From Verrucomicrobiota bacterium (GTDB lineage Bacteria; Verrucomicrobiota; Verrucomicrobiia; Limisphaerales; JBEHZA01): a DNA stretch of 64,000 bases. Of the stretch, positions 29,448 through 33,540 are shown in pieces. Both the position numbers and the translations under genes were made by a program. The notes under the pieces are model-generated. The model had not been told where the DNA came from. It ran no database searches and saw nothing but the letters and a program-made list of their open reading frames with translations. The number at the start of each line of letters is the position of its first letter. Positions within the stretch are counted from its first letter, which is position 1. Location of the stretch: positions 3,312 through 67,311 of the forward strand of contig JBEHZA010000001.1 in the NCBI GenBank assembly GCA_048497895.1, in the 5' to 3' direction.

Positions 29448-30455
29448 TTACACCGAAGGCAATTTGGCACGATATTCCGTGGGTGATTGGCCGACAATTT
29501 TCTTGAACACACGATTAAAGTGCGTCAACGACTGAAAACCCACTTCGAAGGCGATTTCGCTGATGCGCAGGTTGGGGTTCAGCAATAGGTTCTTCGCCTT
29601 TTCAATCCGCACCCGCGAAACATAGTCGGTGAAGTTGATGCCGGTTACTTTCTTGAACATTTTGCAGAAGTAAAATGTGCTCGTATTGACCGCTTTGGCA
29701 ACCTGCCCAAGCGAGAGTTCTTCAGCCTGATGTTCTTGAATGTATTGTTTGGCACGAGTGATGACAGGCGGTTCCGCGTTGTCCCGTTGTACGACGATTT
29801 GATTACTGATCATAGAAAGATGTTGGGCGAAAATATTCAGCAGGTTTACGACCGCATCATACTGACGGGTCGTCAGCACGTGGGTGTTGAAATACGCTTC
29901 ACGTAACTGGGCGGCGTCGACTGGCAAACCCCAATCGGCGATTTGTTGGGCGGCGCGTTCAAATTGCGCTTCCGTGGGGCGTTTACGGAAAACCTGCCCC
30001 GTTTGCAGATAGGCCACGACTTGATCGCCCTGCCGGATCGGCACGGCGGTATCGCACAAACCCAGGGTGCAAGTAACCGTTTGCGGTTCTTGCGTGGCGG
30101 TTTCGCTTAGTTGCTGCTGGACGCGCAGACAAGCGGCGCAGGACCGGCTCTTCTCTGCCATCAAGGCGCAAAAGGGGCTTTCGTTCTTATGCCCGTGATG
30201 AGGCAATTGCCAGGATTCCACAGGCCGCAAGCTCACCGGCATGCCGGTCGTCTCATTGAAGGCGCGTTCGTAATCCCGGTAAATCTGGGAATTGACCAAC
30301 GCCTCAATGATGCCCTTGTGGTGCTGAGAACCGTTCGCCGGCGCCGTTCGCGTCGCTGGGGCTGCCAGCGCCGCGATGCGGGCGATGCGCGAAACATTCG
30401 CACTGTTAACTTCTGTTTTATTCTGCCCGGTGGCGCTCGCATAAATTGTTTGCAT
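29448..30455 (-). CDS. AraC-family transcriptional regulator with an N-terminal PocR-like sensor domain
   Basis: The C-terminal double HTH is present (LSLGQVAKAVNTSTFYFCKMFKK; ISEIAFEVGFQSLTHFNRVFKK). The Cys-rich N-terminal region resembles PocR. Confidence 0.7.
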   Translation of the reverse strand: MQTIYASATGQNKTEVNSANVSRIARIAALAAPATRTAPANGSQHHKGIIEALVNSQIYRDYERAFNETTGMPVSLRPVESWQLPHHGHKNESPFCALMAEKSRSCAACLRVQQQLSETATQEPQTVTCTLGLCDTAVPIRQGDQVVAYLQTGQVFRKRPTEAQFERAAQQIADWGLPVDAAQLREAYFNTHVLTTRQYDAVVNLLNIFAQHLSMISNQIVVQRDNAEPPVITRAKQYIQEHQAEELSLGQVAKAVNTSTFYFCKMFKKVTGINFTDYVSRVRIEKAKNLLLNPNLRISEIAFEVGFQSLTHFNRVFKKIVGQSPTEYRAKLPSV

Positions 30456-30570
30456 GCCAGCAAAATAGGCGAAGCTGACGTGCGCAACAATTGGGCCACT
30501 TCCCATTCGTGAATGGCGGCAAATAACTAGACCCCCTAAGGGAATCCCTTAGCGCCCATTCTCCACGGAA

Positions 30571-31035
30571 TTACTGCAAGCCTTCCGCTTTCAATAAGCG
30601 TGCCCGCGTGACTTGCAAACGCTCAATGACTACTTCCGACACACGCTTCATCAATTCATAACCAAAGTGGTGATTCGTTTCACACTCCTCGCGCAAACGC
30701 GTGCCATAAAAGAAAATCGCGCTTGCCGGTTCGACGACGCGGGCATCGAAATGCCAATAATACGGCGCAAACAACCAGGACCAGCCGAGCACTTCGCCCG
30801 CGCCTAATTCCTGGATCAATAACAAGCCTCCATCCTTGGCATGTGATTCCAAAACCACCTTGCCGGATTGAATCAAATAAAAGCGATTGGCCATTTCCCC
30901 TTCCTGAAAAATCAATTGGCCGCTGTTGAATTCGACCGCCATGGCGCAACTGGCCAGGATCTTGAGATAGCCGGGGTCGATGCCTTTGAAGAAAGGGTGC
31001 TCTGCAAGGATTGCTTCGAGATTTTGCATATTCAT
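30571..31035 (-). CDS. Stand-alone cyclic-nucleotide-binding (cNMP/Crp-like beta-barrel) domain protein
   Basis: FQEGEMANRFYLIQSGKVVLE...LGAGEVLGWSW. There is no HTH because the protein ends after the C-helix. Confidence 0.75.
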   Translation of the reverse strand: MNMQNLEAILAEHPFFKGIDPGYLKILASCAMAVEFNSGQLIFQEGEMANRFYLIQSGKVVLESHAKDGGLLLIQELGAGEVLGWSWLFAPYYWHFDARVVEPASAIFFYGTRLREECETNHHFGYELMKRVSEVVIERLQVTRARLLKAEGLQ

Positions 31036-31183: not shown

Positions 31184-31268
31184 CCACAAATTACGGGTGG
31201 CTCTCTCCCCTGAGCCGGACGATATTGTGGTGCTCTTAATCTGGAGAGCCAACGCAATCAATGGCGTC

Positions 31269-32714
31269 ATGAAAGCCTATTATGAACATTCCCAAGTGCG
31301 ATCGCGCATGCTCGAATATCTCGGCGGCGATTCCGCCCGCAAACTGACGGCGCAGTTCATCACCGCTGGCGATATCGCCGCCTCGCATCACCGGGAACCG
31401 CATCCGCTGAGTGAATTGCCGGTGTTTTGGCAGCAGGGTTCTGATATCGGCCGCTCGCTTTGGGATCGTCAATCGCTCCTCGTCCATCTGGACATCGAAT
31501 ACGTTAATTTTGACTATCCGGCAGAGCCATATCTGGAACCCGAACGCATCTTTGAACTGCAACGTCCGATCGAGTGGGCCGTCGAAGGCTTGCTCCTGGA
31601 TCATCAGATTCGTCCGCTCCACCTGCTGAGCGGACGCGGCCATCACTTTGTCTGGCGCGTGCGCCAGAATTCCCGCGTGTTCCAGCAATTGATCCAGCTT
31701 GGACGGCAACCGAAAGAGCTGCCCGAATTTAACGCGCAACCTCACGCCCCTCATAATCAAGCCGTCTCGGCCGACCTGGGAGCAGCCTTCGCTGGTCTCG
31801 GATTGGTGATGGAGTTTTTCGCGCATCAACTCAAAGTGGATGCCACCCCCATGTGCAAAATCCCCATTGCCCTAACTGCCGTGGAAGTTCCCCCGTCCAA
31901 TTTCGGCCGTGAGCTGATCTCTCTCGATATTTCTGAATATGGCGATCCCTTGAGTTCGCGCACGATTCGTGTGCCGTTCAGTTATTATCTTAAACCGTGG
32001 CAGCAACGCGGCCTGCTGGGCGAAAGCACCGTGGAAAATCTGCTGCCCACATTTCTGATTCCGTTGCAAGGTCTGGATTCCTCGCACGGCAGCCGGGTGA
32101 TGCACGATCAGGACAGTGTGCTGGCGCTTGCGGAACACGCCACCGCGAAAATACCCGATCAATCCAAAGCTATGGAGAACCTCGTTCAGACTTACAAGCG
32201 TTCGCCGCTGGCACAGTTTCACCACTGGTATTTTTCGCAGGAACATCATCCGCCGGAAACATGGCCGGAGAATTATGATCGCACGCCTCTGGAGGCCCTG
32301 CCCGCTTGTGCCCGCTACATCCTGGAACATCCCAATGATCTCCTGTTGAAACCCTCCGGCATTGAGCGCATCGTTCGGGTCATGCTTGCGCTGGGCTGGC
32401 ATCCGCGCCATATCGCCGGCCTGATCCGCTCCCGTTTTGAACGCGATTATCAGTGGGGCGATCAATGGCAAGGTTACGTTCCCGCCATGCGCGCCGATTT
32501 TTACACCCGCATTTTCTCCGGCCTGATCGTCACCGGCCTGGATGACTTGCAGGACTTCACCTGCGCCACCGCACAAATGGAGAAAATGTGCTTTCATCCG
32601 GATTGTCCGGACAATTTGGCTTCATTCCGAAACTCATTATTAGAAAGGAAACGTTATGAGCGACTGGCCTGTCGGCCTTTCAACCGGCTGTTTTTATCAG
32701 CGGAACATTCTTGA
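31269..32714 (+). CDS. Hypothetical protein with archaeo-eukaryotic primase (AEP/PrimPol)-like catalytic motifs
   Basis: From the ATG at 31269: LLVHLDIEY (DxE, motif I), LLSGRGHHFVW (sGxGxH, motif II) and ISLDISEYGDPLSSRTIRVPFSYYLK (D ... RhPxS..K, motif III). The C-terminal half has Cys347 plus a CX8CX4C group at 432/441/446. Motifs were read by eye. Confidence 0.5.
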   Translation: MKAYYEHSQVRSRMLEYLGGDSARKLTAQFITAGDIAASHHREPHPLSELPVFWQQGSDIGRSLWDRQSLLVHLDIEYVNFDYPAEPYLEPERIFELQRPIEWAVEGLLLDHQIRPLHLLSGRGHHFVWRVRQNSRVFQQLIQLGRQPKELPEFNAQPHAPHNQAVSADLGAAFAGLGLVMEFFAHQLKVDATPMCKIPIALTAVEVPPSNFGRELISLDISEYGDPLSSRTIRVPFSYYLKPWQQRGLLGESTVENLLPTFLIPLQGLDSSHGSRVMHDQDSVLALAEHATAKIPDQSKAMENLVQTYKRSPLAQFHHWYFSQEHHPPETWPENYDRTPLEALPACARYILEHPNDLLLKPSGIERIVRVMLALGWHPRHIAGLIRSRFERDYQWGDQWQGYVPAMRADFYTRIFSGLIVTGLDDLQDFTCATAQMEKMCFHPDCPDNLASFRNSLLERKRYERLACRPFNRLFLSAEHS

Positions 32715-33540
32715 TTCACTCGAGCTGATCCGGCGCGGCGGATTCGATATGGTCGAAGTCTGCTCTTTTCCGGCGCACCTGGATTATCACGACAAAGCCG
32801 CCGTGCAACGCGCCGCTCAGCGAATCGAGGAATTGGGCATGGAAGCGTATTCTTTCCATGCGCCGTTTGCCGATCACATCGATATTACCTCGTTGTATCC
32901 GGATCAGCGCAGTCTCGCGACGAACGAAATTCTCCAGGCGGCGGAAGCTGCGGCCTTGCTCCAGGTGCGTTACTTCGTCATTCATCCGGGACCGGAACAT
33001 GCCACTCTGCCGCCCGGCCATGAACGTTATCAGCGGATGGAGAACGCGGTCAGTGTCCTGAATCAGGTGGCCCGTCGCTGCCAGGAACTTGGAGTAGTCT
33101 GCGTGCTGGAAAATAAACTGCCACATCTGTTGTTCGGCACCACCAGCGACATCCTCTGGATCATGGGCGCCATGAATACCATTGAAATCGGCACCTGTCT
33201 GGACACCGGCCACGCCTATCTCTCCGGAGACATCTACAACGTCATGCACAAACTCTCGGCCCACTTACAGATGCTTCACGCCAACGACAACCTCGGCACT
33301 TACGACGACCACAAGCCGCCCGGCCTCGGTAATATTGATTGGTTTAAACTGCTCGCAGAACTTTCGGAAACCGGCTTTCACGGCGGGTTGATTCTGGAAC
33401 TCGCAGGTAATCAGGACGCTGAACTGGTCCTTGCCGAAGCCCGTCGCGCGCGCCGCTTTTTGCGCGATATTTCGCGGCGTCTCAGCCTCTCCAGCCCGCC
33501 GACAGTTAATGTGCCTCACCGGCCTGTGCCGCCGGGCTGA
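32656..33540 (+). CDS. Xylose-isomerase-like TIM-barrel protein (sugar phosphate isomerase/epimerase; AP endonuclease 2 superfamily)
   Basis: N-terminal GLSTGCF, FHAPF, YFVIHPG, LENK and DTGH blocks. Its start overlaps the upstream gene by 59 nt. Confidence 0.75.
   Translation: MSDWPVGLSTGCFYQRNILDSLELIRRGGFDMVEVCSFPAHLDYHDKAAVQRAAQRIEELGMEAYSFHAPFADHIDITSLYPDQRSLATNEILQAAEAAALLQVRYFVIHPGPEHATLPPGHERYQRMENAVSVLNQVARRCQELGVVCVLENKLPHLLFGTTSDILWIMGAMNTIEIGTCLDTGHAYLSGDIYNVMHKLSAHLQMLHANDNLGTYDDHKPPGLGNIDWFKLLAELSETGFHGGLILELAGNQDAELVLAEARRARRFLRDISRRLSLSSPPTVNVPHRPVPPG

What the first reader, a model, noticed from the sequence alone, without database searches (positions are those of the whole stretch)
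31269..32714. Orphan 481-aa protein carrying all three AEP (primase-polymerase) catalytic motifs in a non-mobile context
Read from the ATG at 31269, the translation contains in the canonical order and spacing: hhhhDxE (LLVHLDIEY, D75/E77, nt 31491-31499), sGxGxH (LLSGRGHHFVW, from nt 31629), and D followed by RhPxSxxxK (ISLDISEYGDPLSSRTIRVPFSYYLK, D220 at nt 31926). This is the motif I/II/III pattern of archaeo-eukaryotic primases. DxE rather than DxD is what PrimPol uses, and R.P.S..K is PriS/LigD-Pol-like. The C-terminal half has one distal Cys (C347) plus a CX8CX4C cluster (C432/C441/C446). This loosely recalls the one-distal-plus-three arrangement of the PriL Fe-S domain, but that link is speculative. 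No helicase, replication, plasmid, phage or CRISPR gene is nearby. The neighbours are a TIM-barrel protein, a stand-alone cNMP-binding protein and a PocR/AraC regulator. A chromosomal AEP in this setting could be a repair polymerase or something not yet described.
Basis: partly seen in the sequence, partly recalled or inferred. Interest (0 to 1): 0.7.

Follow-up and report, generated by a model that had tools for sequence, protein, structure and literature searches.

The report
Hidden primase-like enzyme paired with nuclease
The gene encodes an unannotated member of the primase-polymerase (AEP) enzyme superfamily that is not an orphan: it occurs in hundreds of bacterial species and is nearly always locked by a 59-base overlap to an endonuclease-IV-like gene, so the pair is most likely an undescribed DNA repair module.

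Summary
"Orphan" is wrong. The protein founds a large unnamed family (1668 clusters at 90% identity, 368 species genomes) in Verrucomicrobiota, Planctomycetota, Fibrobacterota and Acidobacteriota, with distant archaeal-context members. No match was found in the plasmid, phage or viral-contig collections searched.

No sequence profile detects it (Pfam, NCBIfam, PADLOC, PDB). A confident AlphaFold model (pLDDT 91.5) matches only AEPs: LigD polymerase domain, Prim-PolC, pRN1, CAPP and PriS. D75, D/E77, G124, H126, D220, R231 and R234 hold down to 28% identity. So do four cysteines in an all-helical C-terminal domain with no confident structural relative.

In 84 of 84 related loci the next gene is the same TIM-barrel protein, overlapping by exactly 59 nt in 76 of 82. 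That protein keeps all nine metal ligands of endonuclease IV, four of which ketose epimerases lack.

Independently, 36 of 120 LigD-type polymerase homologs carry a fused TIM barrel of the same superfamily.

Best reading (about 0.5): a chromosomal, stress-linked end-cleaning plus synthesis repair pair. Activity, substrate and metal content are untested.

The parts
31269..32714 (+). Gene for a 481-aa AEP-superfamily protein of an unnamed family. The alternative GTG start at 31197 would give 505 aa.
   Evidence: ORF and translation. Family of 1668 clusters, all named 'hypothetical'. AF2 model pLDDT 91.5, pTM 0.92. Foldseek top hits are all AEPs.
31269..32141 (+). N-terminal catalytic (AEP-like) region, residues 1 to about 291. 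The boundary is approximate.
   Evidence: Foldseek alignments to LigD PolDom, Prim-PolC and CAPP span 315-374 columns. In the DSSP string of the model, the motifs sit on strands 69-80, 117-120/124-132 and 215-220.
31488..31514 (+). Motif I, LDIEYVNFD (D75, E77, D82). These are predicted metal-binding acidic residues on a beta strand.
   Evidence: D75 is kept in 67/71. Position 77 is E in 41 and D in 26 (a DxE/DxD alternation as in AEPs). Y78 62/71, N80 60/71, D82 55/71.
31629..31646 (+). Motif II, SGRGHH (S/T121, G122, R/Q123, G124, H126), at the turn of a beta hairpin.
   Evidence: G124 71/71, H126 66/71, G122 62/71. It is the only segment that hhalign aligns to the LigD PolDom profile (SG.G.H on SG.G.H, not significant).
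31926..31994 (+). Motif III, D220, plus the downstream DPL..R..R.PFS.Y.K segment. In PriS-type enzymes the equivalent segment binds the triphosphate.
   Evidence: D220 71/71, D226 67, P227 68, R231 67, R234 66, F237 66, K242 60. Position 240 is Y in 46 and H in 13, giving S-x-H-x-K as in PriS in the distant clades.
32142..32654 (+). C-terminal all-helical domain (residues 292-462). It has invariant P296, Y309 and H318, the GWHPRH segment, and four conserved cysteines: C347 (32307-32309), C432 (32562-32564), C441 (32589-32591) and C446 (32604-32606).
   Evidence: C347 67/71, C432 65/71, C441 66/71, C446 54/71; P296, Y309 and H318 71/71. All four Cys are present in nearly all distant clades. The domain model has pLDDT 80. 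No significant structural relative. PriL Fe-S domain 6du0 has the highest query-normalised TM-score (0.33) and pRN1 helix bundle 9rtj the highest target-normalised one (0.38) among noise-level hits.
32656..32714 (+). 59-nt dual-coding overlap. The last 19 codons of the AEP gene are read in a second frame (+1) as the first codons of the TIM-barrel gene.
   Evidence: Sequence. The overlap is exactly 59 nt with an ATG start in 76 of 82 related loci. The AEP tail has pLDDT below 50. Its conservation follows from the TIM N-terminus VGLSTGCFY in the other frame (inference from the codons).
32656..33540 (+). Partner gene: a 294-aa TIM barrel of the xylose-isomerase-like / AP endonuclease 2 superfamily with an endonuclease-IV-type metal site.
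   Evidence: PF01261, E 5.7e-33. Directly downstream on the same strand in 84/84 loci and in three distant clades. hhalign to E. coli Nfo gives 96.5% probability. The alignment (Nfo residues 85-264) places H110, E152, D183, H186, H208, D217, H219 and E248 on eight Nfo ligand positions; H68 in the HAPF segment is matched to Nfo H69 by position only. All nine are invariant. Epimerases lack H68, H110 and D217/H219. Nearest solved structures are MJ1311 and M. tuberculosis EndoIV.
30571..31035 (-). Divergent stand-alone cNMP-binding protein. It is a recurrent but not universal neighbour and a possible regulator.
   Evidence: PF00027. The homolog cluster is present in 10 of 84 loci, immediately upstream and divergent in five: L008, L028, L034, L041, L054. 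Weak association; part of the module only by inference.

Best explanation
[quoted passage not shown] It belongs to a deep-branching family that sequence profiles cannot see. Its catalytic domain is followed by a helical domain with four conserved cysteines, probably a metal or Fe-S site.

It works together with the product of the overlapping downstream gene, a TIM-barrel phosphodiesterase with an endonuclease-IV-type metal centre. The most likely mechanism is a two-enzyme, chromosomally encoded nucleic-acid repair module.

1. The EndoIV-like enzyme incises at abasic sites or removes 3'-blocking groups (3'-phosphate, 3'-phosphoglycolate) to leave a 3'-OH.
2. The AEP then fills the gap or extends the end, possibly with ribonucleotides, under stress or stationary-phase conditions.
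3. Sealing is left to a ligase encoded elsewhere.

Shown here: the AEP fold (on a predicted model), conservation of the catalytic and NTP-binding residues, the EndoIV-type ligand set, the obligatory gene pairing, and the chromosomal setting.

Inferred: the substrate (DNA), the order of the steps, the role of the Cys domain, and stress regulation.
For: 1. Fold. The AF2 model has pLDDT 91.5 and pTM 0.92. The 16 best PDB Foldseek hits are all AEPs: LigD PolDom 2r9l (probability 1.00), Prim-PolC 5op0/6sa0, pRN1, CAPP (TM 0.58 on the target) and human PriS. BFVD hits are phage primases or prim-pols.

2. Active site. D75, D/E77, G124, H126, D220, R231, R234 and K242 are conserved down to 28% identity and across nearly all 20 clades.

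3. Pairing. The TIM gene lies directly downstream in 84/84 loci, with a 59-nt overlap in 76/82. It is also adjacent, with a 4-nt overlap, in distant clades at 31-37% identity. No other gene is conserved nearby. One apparently genuine fusion protein exists, P0130.

4. Partner chemistry. hhalign to E. coli Nfo gives 96.5% probability and E 7e-10. All nine Nfo metal-ligand positions are occupied by invariant identical residues: eight fall inside the hhalign alignment and H68 is matched by position. Ketose epimerases lack four of them. M. tuberculosis EndoIV is the second-best solved relative.

5. Independent precedent. Thirty-six of the 120 listed homologs of a bona fide LigD-type polymerase domain are proteins of about 600 aa with an N-terminal PF01261 TIM barrel fused to PF21686. 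In L094 a LigD_Prim-Pol gene sits next to the pair. In mycobacteria, EndoIV prepares gaps that the AEP Prim-PolC fills during stationary-phase excision repair (PMC5663958).

6. Context. Universal stress protein genes lie within 6 kb in 21 of 84 loci and directly upstream in distant clades.

7. Not mobile. No match in plasmids or phages, nor in viral contigs scanned with close-clade patterns.
Against: - No ligase, Ku, glycosylase or other repair gene is conserved next to the pair.
- The conserved Cys4 helical domain has no counterpart in the gap-filling AEPs (LigD PolDom, Prim-PolC). It recalls the initiation domains of true primases (PMC5862659).
- The partner's best NCBIfam hit is CbiR, a small-molecule phosphodiesterase, at 46.6 bits. 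Nfo scores 27.7 bits. Both are far below their cut-offs.
- The partner's closest solved relatives, MJ1311 and TTHB071, have no established function.
- Some family members lack the TIM partner altogether: an archaeal-context clade and clades 5 and 6.
- Every link to AEPs rests on a predicted structure. Foldseek E-values are only 5e-3 or weaker, and hhalign to the LigD PolDom and pRN1 profiles is not significant.
- I could not inspect model coordinates, so spatial clustering of the triad is unverified.
- No biochemical or expression data exist.
Confidence: 0.5

Rival explanations
1. It is a self-contained primase. The AEP domain and the C-terminal Cys4 helical domain would act like a fused PriS plus PriL-CTD/PriCT. 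The helical domain would hold the initiating nucleotide and template so that primers are made de novo, for example to re-prime past lesions or restart replication. The EndoIV-like partner would remove the lesion or a blocked end nearby.
For: - AEPs that initiate synthesis typically carry a helical PriL-CTD, PriCT or PriX-type module. PolpTN2 has a fused PriL-like domain with a predicted 4Fe-4S cluster (PMC5862659).
- Four cysteines in a 1+3 arrangement are conserved across nearly all clades.
- Among the noise-level Foldseek hits of the isolated domain, PriL Fe-S domain 6du0 has the highest query-normalised TM-score (0.33, rmsd 5.3) and pRN1 helix bundle 9rtj the highest target-normalised one (0.38).
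- One of 71 members hits PF04104 (primase large subunit) at E 0.029.
- Distant clades carry the PriS-like S-x-H-x-K motif.
Against: - The structural and Pfam hints are individually insignificant: probabilities 0.13 and 0.08, and E 0.029 in one sequence.
- The Cys spacing (85, 8 and 4 residues between successive Cys) differs from what I recall for PriL.
- C446 is lost in about a quarter of the sequences.
- hhalign to pRN1 ORF904 residues 1-370 is not significant.
- No helicase or replisome gene is linked.
- This reading gives the invariant EndoIV-like partner no clear job.
Confidence: 0.2
2. The pair does not act on genomic DNA. The AEP-fold enzyme would be a nucleotidyltransferase, and the TIM barrel a phosphodiesterase, acting on a small molecule, a cofactor or a short signalling oligonucleotide. 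One would make and the other break a phosphodiester bond as part of a stress response.
For: - The partner's best curated-family hit is CbiR, a cobamide-remodelling phosphodiesterase of the same superfamily.
- Nucleotide-sensing proteins recur nearby. A stand-alone cNMP-binding gene occurs in 10 of 84 loci and is immediately divergent upstream in five of them and in the window.
- In L028 and L034 a palindrome lies in the intergenic region shared by the cNMP-binding gene and the AEP gene.
- One member, P0217, carries an N-terminal CBS pair.
- USP genes are frequent neighbours.
- The AEP palm shares its RRM-like core with nucleotide cyclases and Cas10. These appear only as very weak Foldseek hits.
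Against: - The CbiR score is less than half its cut-off, and no cobamide gene is linked.
- To my knowledge every characterised AEP is a nucleic-acid polymerase or primase.
- The independent TIM-barrel fusions are to genuine LigD-type DNA repair polymerase domains.
- The cNMP, CBS and USP links are lineage-restricted and could simply reflect regulation.
Confidence: 0.12
3. It is a catalytically silent or structural AEP relic whose motif resemblance no longer reflects enzyme activity.
For: No sequence profile of any known AEP family detects it.
Against: Near-invariance of exactly the metal-binding and triphosphate-binding positions across 28-100% identity and several phyla argues for retained catalysis. 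A few individual sequences with substitutions (P0182, P0193, P0252) are the exceptions.
Confidence: 0.05

Closest known systems
Mycobacterial Prim-PolC / LigC excision-repair complex working with endonuclease IV (PMC5663958)
   Same: An AEP polymerase fills short gaps whose 3' ends were cleaned by an endonuclease-IV TIM-barrel enzyme. The system is chromosomal, non-replicative and linked to stationary phase. Prim-PolC structures are among the top Foldseek hits.
   Different: - Here the AEP and the EndoIV-like gene form an obligatory overlapping operon. In mycobacteria they are separate genes whose products were reported to interact through LigC.
- No ligase is linked here.
- There is no detectable sequence similarity to PF21686.
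- This protein has an extra Cys4 helical domain.
- The partner is not an Nfo orthologue (27.7 bits against a 129.65 cut-off).
LigD of bacterial NHEJ (polymerase, 3'-phosphoesterase and ligase domains, with Ku)
   Same: It couples an AEP polymerase with a 3'-end-healing phosphoesterase. The best single PDB match is the M. tuberculosis LigD polymerase domain.
   Different: The end-healing enzyme here is a TIM barrel, not the LigD PE domain. No ligase domain or Ku gene is present. The sequence family is different.
Proteins of about 600 aa with a PF01261 TIM barrel fused to a LigD-type Prim-Pol domain (for example P0303 and P0376, Acidimicrobiia and others; uncharacterised, found)
   Same: They show the same pairing of superfamilies, an AP_endonuc_2 TIM barrel plus an AEP. 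They are stand-alone chromosomal genes without Ku or a ligase nearby. Their TIM domain aligns with the partner here at 84% hhalign probability and keeps most of the ligand positions.
   Different: Those are single polypeptides with the TIM domain N-terminal, whereas here there are two overlapping genes with the TIM gene downstream. Their AEP is a recognisable PF21686 domain and lacks the Cys4 domain. The TIM subfamilies differ.
AEPs with a fused helical initiation domain: pRN1 ORF904 (PriCT-1), PolpTN2 (PriL-like Fe-S domain) and PriS/PriL (PMC5862659)
   Same: The architecture is an AEP catalytic domain followed by an alpha-helical domain, here with four conserved Cys. pRN1 and PriS are among the fold hits.
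   Different: Those are replicative primases of plasmids, viruses or cells, usually linked to helicases. This family is chromosomal, has no helicase link, and its C-terminal domain has no significant match to them.
Eukaryotic PrimPol
   Same: It has a DxE motif I, a non-replicative damage-tolerance role and a Cys-containing C-terminal metal module.
   Different: No sequence or specific fold match was found here. As I recall, PrimPol uses a UL52-type zinc finger, not a 170-residue helical domain. It has no EndoIV-like partner.
MJ1311 (PDB 3wqo) and TTHB071 (3ayt), the closest solved relatives of the partner protein
   Same: Same TIM-barrel subfamily (profile E 2e-31 and 2e-11). MJ1311 shows residues matching all nine EndoIV-type ligand positions. 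TTHB071 shows eight; its alignment ends before the ninth. MJ1311 was listed as the predicted EndoIV homolog of M. jannaschii (PMC2770678).
   Different: Their functions are not established. The PDB names both as uncharacterized proteins. No AEP partner is known for them.

Membership tests
AEP (archaeo-eukaryotic primase / primase-polymerase) superfamily | Catalytic core fold (AEP-type module with RRM-like palm) | tested here: met
   AF2 model pLDDT 91.5. The 16 best PDB Foldseek hits are all AEPs, with probability 0.75-1.00 for the first 12, and the BFVD hits are primases or prim-pols. Caveats: the model is predicted, E-values are 5e-3 or weaker, and TM-scores are 0.3-0.59.
AEP (archaeo-eukaryotic primase / primase-polymerase) superfamily | Motif I hhhDxD/E with conserved acidic pair | tested here: met
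   D75 67/71. Position 77 is E in 41 and D in 26. The motif sits on predicted strand 69-80.
AEP (archaeo-eukaryotic primase / primase-polymerase) superfamily | Motif II sGxGxH | tested here: met
   S/T121 68/71, G124 71/71, H126 66/71, at a hairpin turn. It is the only segment aligned to LigD motif II by hhalign, though not significantly.
AEP (archaeo-eukaryotic primase / primase-polymerase) superfamily | Motif III acidic residue, plus the downstream basic/Ser/His/Lys triphosphate-binding segment | tested here: met
   D220 71/71, R231 67, R234 66, S/T238 60, Y/H240 59, K242 60.
AEP (archaeo-eukaryotic primase / primase-polymerase) superfamily | Detectable sequence-profile relationship to a curated AEP family (PF01896, PF09250, PF21686 and others) | tested here: not met
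   No Pfam or NCBIfam hit at E<=10. None of the 71 members hits an AEP catalytic family. The family profile against PDB sequences finds nothing. hhalign to the LigD PolDom profile and to pRN1 gives probability about 0.2%.
AEP (archaeo-eukaryotic primase / primase-polymerase) superfamily | The three acidic residues cluster at one metal site in 3D | not testable with these tools
   Model coordinates and Foldseek residue alignments are not returned. Only the secondary-structure placement could be checked.
AEP (archaeo-eukaryotic primase / primase-polymerase) superfamily | Primase and/or polymerase activity | not testable with these tools
   Requires biochemistry.
LigD polymerase domain / Prim-PolC family (PF21686) | Profile membership, and linkage to Ku or an ATP-dependent ligase | tested here: not met
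   No PF21686 hit. hhalign is not significant. No Ku or ligase in 84 loci. A single locus, L094, has a LigD_Prim-Pol gene nearby.
PriL-CTD / PriCT-type primase accessory domain (4Fe-4S) | Four conserved cluster-ligating cysteines | tested here: inconclusive
   C347 67/71, C432 65/71, C441 66/71, C446 54/71, all four present in nearly all distant clades. Conservation fits a metal site. The spacing differs from what I recall for PriL, and metal content is unknown.
PriL-CTD / PriCT-type primase accessory domain (4Fe-4S) | Fold or profile similarity to the PriL Fe-S domain or the pRN1 helix bundle | tested here: inconclusive
   Foldseek of the isolated domain gives 6du0 at E 7.1, probability 0.13, TM 0.33, and 9rtj at E 7.5, TM 0.38. 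6du0 has the highest query-normalised and 9rtj the highest target-normalised TM-score in a list with nothing significant. PF04104 is hit by 1 of 71 members at E 0.029.
Endonuclease IV (Nfo) family, for the partner gene 32656-33540 | TIM barrel with the nine ligands of the trinuclear metal site (E. coli H69, H109, E145, D179, H182, H216, D229, H231, E261; residue list from my own knowledge) | tested here: met
   PF01261. hhalign to E. coli Nfo gives 96.5% probability over Nfo residues 85-264 and aligns H110, E152, D183, H186, H208, D217, H219 and E248. H68 in HAPF is matched to H69 by position. All nine are invariant in 26 partners. Epimerases lack H68, H110 and D217/H219.
Endonuclease IV (Nfo) family, for the partner gene 32656-33540 | Score above the curated Nfo family threshold (orthology) | tested here: not met
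   TIGR00587 nfo scores 27.7 bits against a cut-off of 129.65. The partner is a separate subfamily with MJ1311.
CbiR cobamide-remodelling phosphodiesterase, for the partner gene | Score above the NF041277 threshold, and linkage to cobamide genes | tested here: not met
   46.6 bits against a cut-off of 105. No cobamide gene among the conserved or frequent neighbours.
Known anti-phage defence systems | Match to a PADLOC model | tested here: not met
   No hit for either protein at E<=0.1.

The most novel reading that the evidence does not exclude
The pair is not a DNA repair system. It would be a stress-controlled nucleotide-signal or small-molecule system in which an AEP-fold enzyme, working without a genomic template, makes a phosphodiester-linked product (a short oligonucleotide or a nucleotidylated metabolite). 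The EndoIV-like TIM barrel would degrade or remodel that product, with cNMP-binding, CBS and USP proteins as sensors. This would be the first AEP with a non-polymerase, signalling or metabolic role.
Probability: 0.1. Interest if true: 0.9.

Novelty: new variant of a known kind. Interest (0 to 1): 0.68.

Why it matters
Bacteria prime replication with DnaG. Their AEPs are known mainly from NHEJ or excision repair (LigD, Prim-PolC), from mobile elements and from CRISPR-associated systems.

This finding adds an AEP family that:
- is chromosomal, was found in 368 of 185,579 species genomes, and spans several major environmental phyla;
- is invisible to Pfam, NCBIfam and profile searches, and annotated everywhere as 'hypothetical protein';
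- carries a conserved four-cysteine helical domain;
- is locked by a conserved 59-nt dual-coding overlap to an endonuclease-IV-like enzyme.

LigD-type polymerases have independently fused to a TIM barrel of the same superfamily. Taken together, this suggests a recurring 'TIM-barrel end-cleaner plus AEP polymerase' design for DNA repair, with no paper found on it in the searchable library.

If the design is confirmed, three things follow. It would define a new repair route in Verrucomicrobiota, Planctomycetota, Fibrobacterota and Acidobacteriota. It would suggest a function for the MJ1311/TTHB071 structural-genomics proteins. It would give two new families for domain databases.

Tried and rejected
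**Searches that found nothing**
- Sequence searches of the AEP protein against Pfam, NCBIfam, PADLOC and PDB.
- The family profile against PDB sequences: only a spurious E 1.1 hit.
- hhalign of the family against pRN1 ORF904(1-370) and against a 30-sequence LigD PolDom alignment: not significant.
- The 71-sequence alignment was too diverse for the genome scan; the 42-sequence one worked.
- Foldseek of the isolated C-terminal domain: no significant match.
- Literature searches for AEP plus xylose-isomerase-like, TIM barrel, Planctomycetota or LigD, and for TTHB071 and MJ1311. There is no paper on this family or on TIM-AEP fusions. MJ1311 appears only in a table of predicted EndoIV homologs.
- Pfam scans of the unannotated neighbours of distant or archaeal-context members. 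hhalign of the 484-aa upstream gene in L088 against the family.

**Ideas considered and set aside**
- Fusion proteins as Rosetta-stone evidence. P0141 loses the Cys cluster into low-complexity sequence and is probably a frameshift artefact. P0130 looks genuine, but it is a single case.
- P0259 (a PocR domain, a family fragment and an AraC HTH). This is most likely an assembly chimera and was not used as evidence.
- A conserved upstream regulator site for the window gene. The palindrome found in a sub-clade is absent from the window: 7 matches against 8 expected by chance.
- The sigma-70 promoter and terminator scan near the gene gave nothing above chance.
- Sugar isomerase or epimerase as the partner's function. 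Overall similarity to epimerases equals that to EndoIV, but the EndoIV-specific ligands are present in the partner and absent in epimerases.


Full report
**1. The observation**

The ORF from ATG 31269 to the TGA at 32712-32714 is real and encodes 481 aa. The longest ORF starts at GTG 31197 (505 aa), which is how the gene was called in the public collection (P0001). Homolog lengths (mostly 480-490 aa) and the onset of conservation at residues 4-5 favour ATG 31269.

- D75/E77 at nt 31491-31499.
- SGRGHH from nt 31629.
- D220 at nt 31926.
- C347, C432, C441 and C446.

The neighbours are as described:
- a 154-aa cNMP-binding protein (30571-31035, minus strand);
- a PocR/AraC regulator (29448-30506, minus strand);
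- two PAS histidine kinases and a LuxR-type response regulator further upstream;
- a PF01261 TIM barrel downstream (32656-33540, plus strand);
- then an ABC1 kinase, a fatty-acid hydroxylase and a DUF1501 protein.

**2. Not an orphan**

The protein has 1668 homolog clusters (90% identity) at E<=1e-3 among the 8000 candidates scored. It has 584 representative clusters at 50% identity, reaching down to about 28% identity. Every source name seen is 'hypothetical protein'.

A scan of one genome per GTDB species found relatives in 368 genomes. Among the 80 loci listed, most are Verrucomicrobiota (Chthoniobacterales, Udaeobacter, Terrimicrobiaceae). Others are Planctomycetota (Pirellulaceae, Planctomycetaceae, Phycisphaerae, Thermoguttaceae), Fibrobacterota (Fibrobacter, Chitinispirillaceae) and Acidobacteriota. 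A few MAGs are labelled Nitrospirota, Methylomirabilota or Alphaproteobacteria.

The gene sits on contigs of up to several Mb. Nothing was found in 72,556 plasmids or 50,697 phage genomes. A pattern-based scan of 2.9 million viral contigs, which can only find close-clade relatives, also found nothing.

**3. What the protein is**

No sequence method recognises it:
- Pfam, NCBIfam, PADLOC and PDB give no hit even at E<=10.
- A 71-sequence family profile finds nothing real in the PDB.
- None of the 71 members hits a catalytic AEP Pfam family.

An AlphaFold2 model from a 42-sequence alignment is confident: pLDDT 91.5, pTM 0.92, with only residues 465-481 disordered. Foldseek against the PDB returns AEPs and nothing else at the top:
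- M. tuberculosis LigD polymerase domain (2r9l, 4mky; probability 1.00);
- M. smegmatis Prim-PolC (5op0, 6sa0, 6sa1);
- pRN1 primase (9aam);
- the CRISPR-associated Prim-Pol (7p9j, 7nqf; TM 0.58-0.59 on the target);
- human PriS (4mhq).

Lower in the list, at negligible probability, come other palm enzymes (Cas10, Thg1, cyclases). The viral library gives phage primases, DUF927 proteins, 'replication protein B' and bifunctional primase/polymerases. E-values are modest (5e-3 or weaker), so this is a distant relationship seen through a predicted structure.

The motif evidence is independent of the model and strong. In 71 sequences at 28-51% identity to the query:
- D75 is kept in 67.
- Position 77 is E in 41 and D in 26, the DxE/DxD alternation typical of AEP motif I.
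- G124 is invariant and H126 is kept in 66.
- D220 is invariant.
- R231, R234, F237 and K242 are kept in 67, 66, 66 and 60.

The signature holds in nearly all of 20 sequence clusters. In the distant clusters position 240 is His, giving the PriS-like S-x-H-x-K. In the model's secondary structure, motif I lies on strand 69-80, motif II at the turn between strands 117-120 and 124-132, and motif III at the end of strand 215-220. As I recall the AEP topology, this is where these motifs should sit.

Two limits apply. I could not inspect coordinates, so 3D clustering of the triad is untested. hhalign against a 30-sequence LigD PolDom alignment is not significant (probability 0.2%), although its single local alignment places the family's SG.G.H and the preceding helix on LigD's SG.G.H. 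hhalign against pRN1 ORF904 is also not significant.

My conclusion is that the protein is a member of the AEP superfamily at fold and active-site level, but of no named family.

**4. The C-terminal domain**

Residues from about 292 to 462 are all-helical. P296, Y309 and H318 are invariant, and a GWHPRH segment is strongly conserved. C347, C432 and C441 are kept in 65-67 of 71 sequences and C446 in 54. All four are present in nearly all distant clades, so four Cys is the ancestral state.

Modelled alone (pLDDT 80), the domain has no significant PDB match (best E 1.2). Within that noise-level list, the eukaryotic PriL Fe-S domain (6du0; TM 0.33, rmsd 5.3) has the highest query-normalised TM-score and the pRN1 helix-bundle domain (9rtj; TM 0.38 on the target) the highest target-normalised one. 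One of 71 members hits PF04104 (primase large subunit) at E 0.029.

Kazlauskas et al. argue that PriL-CTD, PriCT-1, PriCT-2 and PriX are related helical modules fused or bound to AEPs for primer initiation (PMC5862659). A divergent module of that kind is plausible here, but it is not shown.

**5. The decisive context**

Three long contigs first showed a PF01261 gene directly downstream, overlapping the AEP gene, while everything else differed.

Across 84 loci (80 species genomes plus four contig look-ups), a homolog of the window's TIM-barrel protein lies immediately downstream on the same strand in 84 of 84. Its translation aligns from residue 1. The overlap is exactly 59 nt with an ATG start in 76 of 82 measurable loci.

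Clustering all flanking ORFs shows no other conserved neighbour. The next most frequent are:
- universal stress proteins, in 21 loci;
- a P-type ATPase, in 12 loci;
- a stand-alone cNMP-binding protein, in 10 loci and immediately divergent upstream in five of them, as in the window.

In distant clades (31-37% identity) the TIM gene is again directly downstream, now with a 4-nt overlap. USP genes lie next to it, and in L094 a LigD_Prim-Pol gene follows.

Three other distant members lack the TIM gene:
- one has archaeal-type neighbours (Pelota, MJ0043_C);
- one is followed by an AbiEii gene;
- one lies near a MoxR-type ATPase.

**6. The partner**

The partner is a PF01261 protein (E 5.7e-33) that reaches no curated NCBIfam threshold. 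Its best hit is CbiR at 46.6 bits against a cut-off of 105. Nfo scores 27.7 bits against 129.65. Several epimerases and isomerases score similarly.

With a profile, the closest solved structures are MJ1311 (2e-31), M. tuberculosis EndoIV 5zhz (1e-12), TTHB071 (2e-11), and then ketose 3-epimerases and further EndoIVs at similar scores. Overall similarity therefore does not decide its chemistry.

The metal ligands do. hhalign to E. coli Nfo (sequence taken from NC_000913) gives 96.5% probability and E 7e-10 over Nfo residues 85-264. It aligns H110, E152, D183, H186, H208, D217, H219 and E248 with Nfo H109, E145, D179, H182, H216, D229, H231 and E261. H68 in HAPF corresponds to H69 by position, outside the hhalign alignment. 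All nine are invariant in 26 partners.

In the pairwise alignments, MJ1311 has matching residues at all nine positions. TTHB071 has them at eight, and its alignment ends before the ninth. The ketose epimerases have Ser or Tyr at H68 and H110, and Arg, Gly or a gap at D217-x-H219. The partner is thus best described as an EndoIV-type multinuclear-metal phosphodiesterase of a separate subfamily. It is not an Nfo orthologue. The Nfo ligand list is from my own knowledge of the E. coli structure.

**7. An independent precedent found on the way**

To build a LigD PolDom profile, I searched with the LigD_Prim-Pol neighbour from L094. Thirty-six of the 120 listed homologs are proteins of about 600 aa with an N-terminal PF01261 TIM barrel fused to PF21686. 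Many are from Acidimicrobiia and annotated only as 'non-homologous end-joining DNA ligase'.

Their TIM domain aligns with the partner family at 84% hhalign probability and keeps most ligand positions. They are stand-alone chromosomal genes without Ku or a ligase nearby.

So a genuine DNA-repair AEP has independently joined a TIM barrel of the same superfamily. No paper in the searchable library mentions this.

**8. Mechanism**

The best-supported reading is a two-enzyme repair module. The EndoIV-like enzyme incises abasic sites or removes 3' blocks. The AEP then extends or fills, and a ligase encoded elsewhere seals the nick. This mirrors the reconstituted mycobacterial pathway, in which EndoIV processes the gap that Prim-PolC fills with ribonucleotides before LigC seals it in stationary phase (PMC5663958). 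It also mirrors the Pol plus phosphoesterase logic of LigD.

The frequent USP and other stress genes nearby fit a stress or dormancy setting, but that is an inference.

Weak points of this reading:
- no linked ligase;
- the unexplained Cys4 domain, which points towards primase-type initiation;
- the partner's similarity to small-molecule phosphodiesterases;
- clades without the partner;
- no experimental data of any kind.

I give the repair module about 0.5, a self-contained Fe-S primase about 0.2, a non-DNA nucleotide or small-molecule role about 0.12, and an inactive relic about 0.05. The remainder is unassigned.

**9. The overlap**

The TIM gene is in the +1 frame relative to the AEP gene. 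The AEP tail (residues 463-481) is disordered in the model. Its conserved 'LFL' follows from the TIM N-terminus G-C-F-Y read one base earlier (codons). The tail therefore looks like an overprinted by-product, and the arrangement suggests translational coupling.

A run of five T (32691-32695), preceded by a weak hairpin, lies inside the overlap. A +1 slip there would produce an AEP-TIM fusion. One natural fusion-like protein exists (P0130). A second, P0141, looks like a frameshift artefact. Frameshifting was not tested.

**10. Novelty**

The AEP superfamily, EndoIV-like enzymes and their cooperation in repair are all known. Three things are new:
- a large chromosomal AEP family that escapes all profile libraries;
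- its Cys4 helical domain;
- the obligatory, overlap-locked pairing with an EndoIV-like TIM barrel, paralleled by undescribed TIM-LigD-PolDom fusions.

I rate this a new variant of a known kind, with interest 0.68.

Noticed in passing
Proteins P0297, P0303, P0312, P0376 and others; loci L095-L098 (gene at 6001-7806 in L095 and L096): Thirty-six of the 120 listed homologs of a LigD-type polymerase domain are proteins of about 600 aa with an N-terminal PF01261 (AP endonuclease 2 / xylose-isomerase-like) TIM barrel fused to PF21686. They are mostly from Acidimicrobiia, sit alone on the chromosome without Ku or a ligase, and are annotated only as an NHEJ ligase. I found no paper describing this architecture.
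   Followed up: partly
window 32656-32714: A 59-nt dual-coding overlap (TIM gene in the +1 frame) is conserved exactly in 76 of 82 related loci across phyla. It contains a run of five T (32691-32695) preceded by a weak hairpin (32671-32688). This could serve translational coupling or a +1 frameshift that makes a fusion protein.
   Followed up: partly
L028 and L034 at 5854, L047 at 4238, L057 at 5886, L063 at 5900, L076 at 5902 and others: A palindrome, TGCGCAA-N3-TTGCGCA, often followed by AAAACGCAAG, lies upstream of the AEP gene in a subset of Chthoniobacterales/Udaeobacter loci. Its end is 29-68 nt from the start of the longest AEP ORF where that was measured. In L028 and L034 it sits in the intergenic region shared with the divergent cNMP-binding gene, and it recurs before other genes in these loci. 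It is absent upstream of the window gene (window matches are at chance level).
   Followed up: partly
L087-L089 (P0238), L090 (P0268), L091 (P0174): Distant family members (28-36% identity, with the catalytic residues and four Cys intact) occur without the TIM partner. One has archaeal-type neighbours (Pelota/Dom34, MJ0043_C). One is followed by an AbiEii toxin-like gene. One lies near a MoxR-type AAA ATPase. The adjacent 416-630-aa genes have no Pfam match.
   Followed up: partly
Protein P0217 (612 aa): One family member carries an N-terminal pair of CBS domains, which are usually adenine-nucleotide sensors, fused to the AEP-like protein.
   Followed up: no
Protein P0259 (428 aa); compare window 29448-30506 (minus strand) and 31269 onwards: A predicted protein combines a PocR sensory domain, residues 41-228 of this AEP family, and an AraC HTH. 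The window has a PocR/AraC gene about 760 nt upstream of the AEP gene, so this is probably an assembly chimera. A real rearrangement was not excluded.
   Followed up: no
Flanks of L001, L092, L093 and 21 of the 84 loci: The pair often lies among stress-type genes: universal stress proteins, a P-type ATPase, BON and DUF883 proteins, a nitroreductase-like gene and cNMP-binding proteins. This resembles a dormancy or hypoxia island. Enrichment was not tested statistically, and the loci are phylogenetically related.
   Followed up: partly
window 31197-31268: The public gene call (P0001, 505 aa) starts at GTG 31197, 24 codons upstream of the ATG that homolog alignment supports. There is no obvious Shine-Dalgarno sequence before either start.
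   Followed up: no
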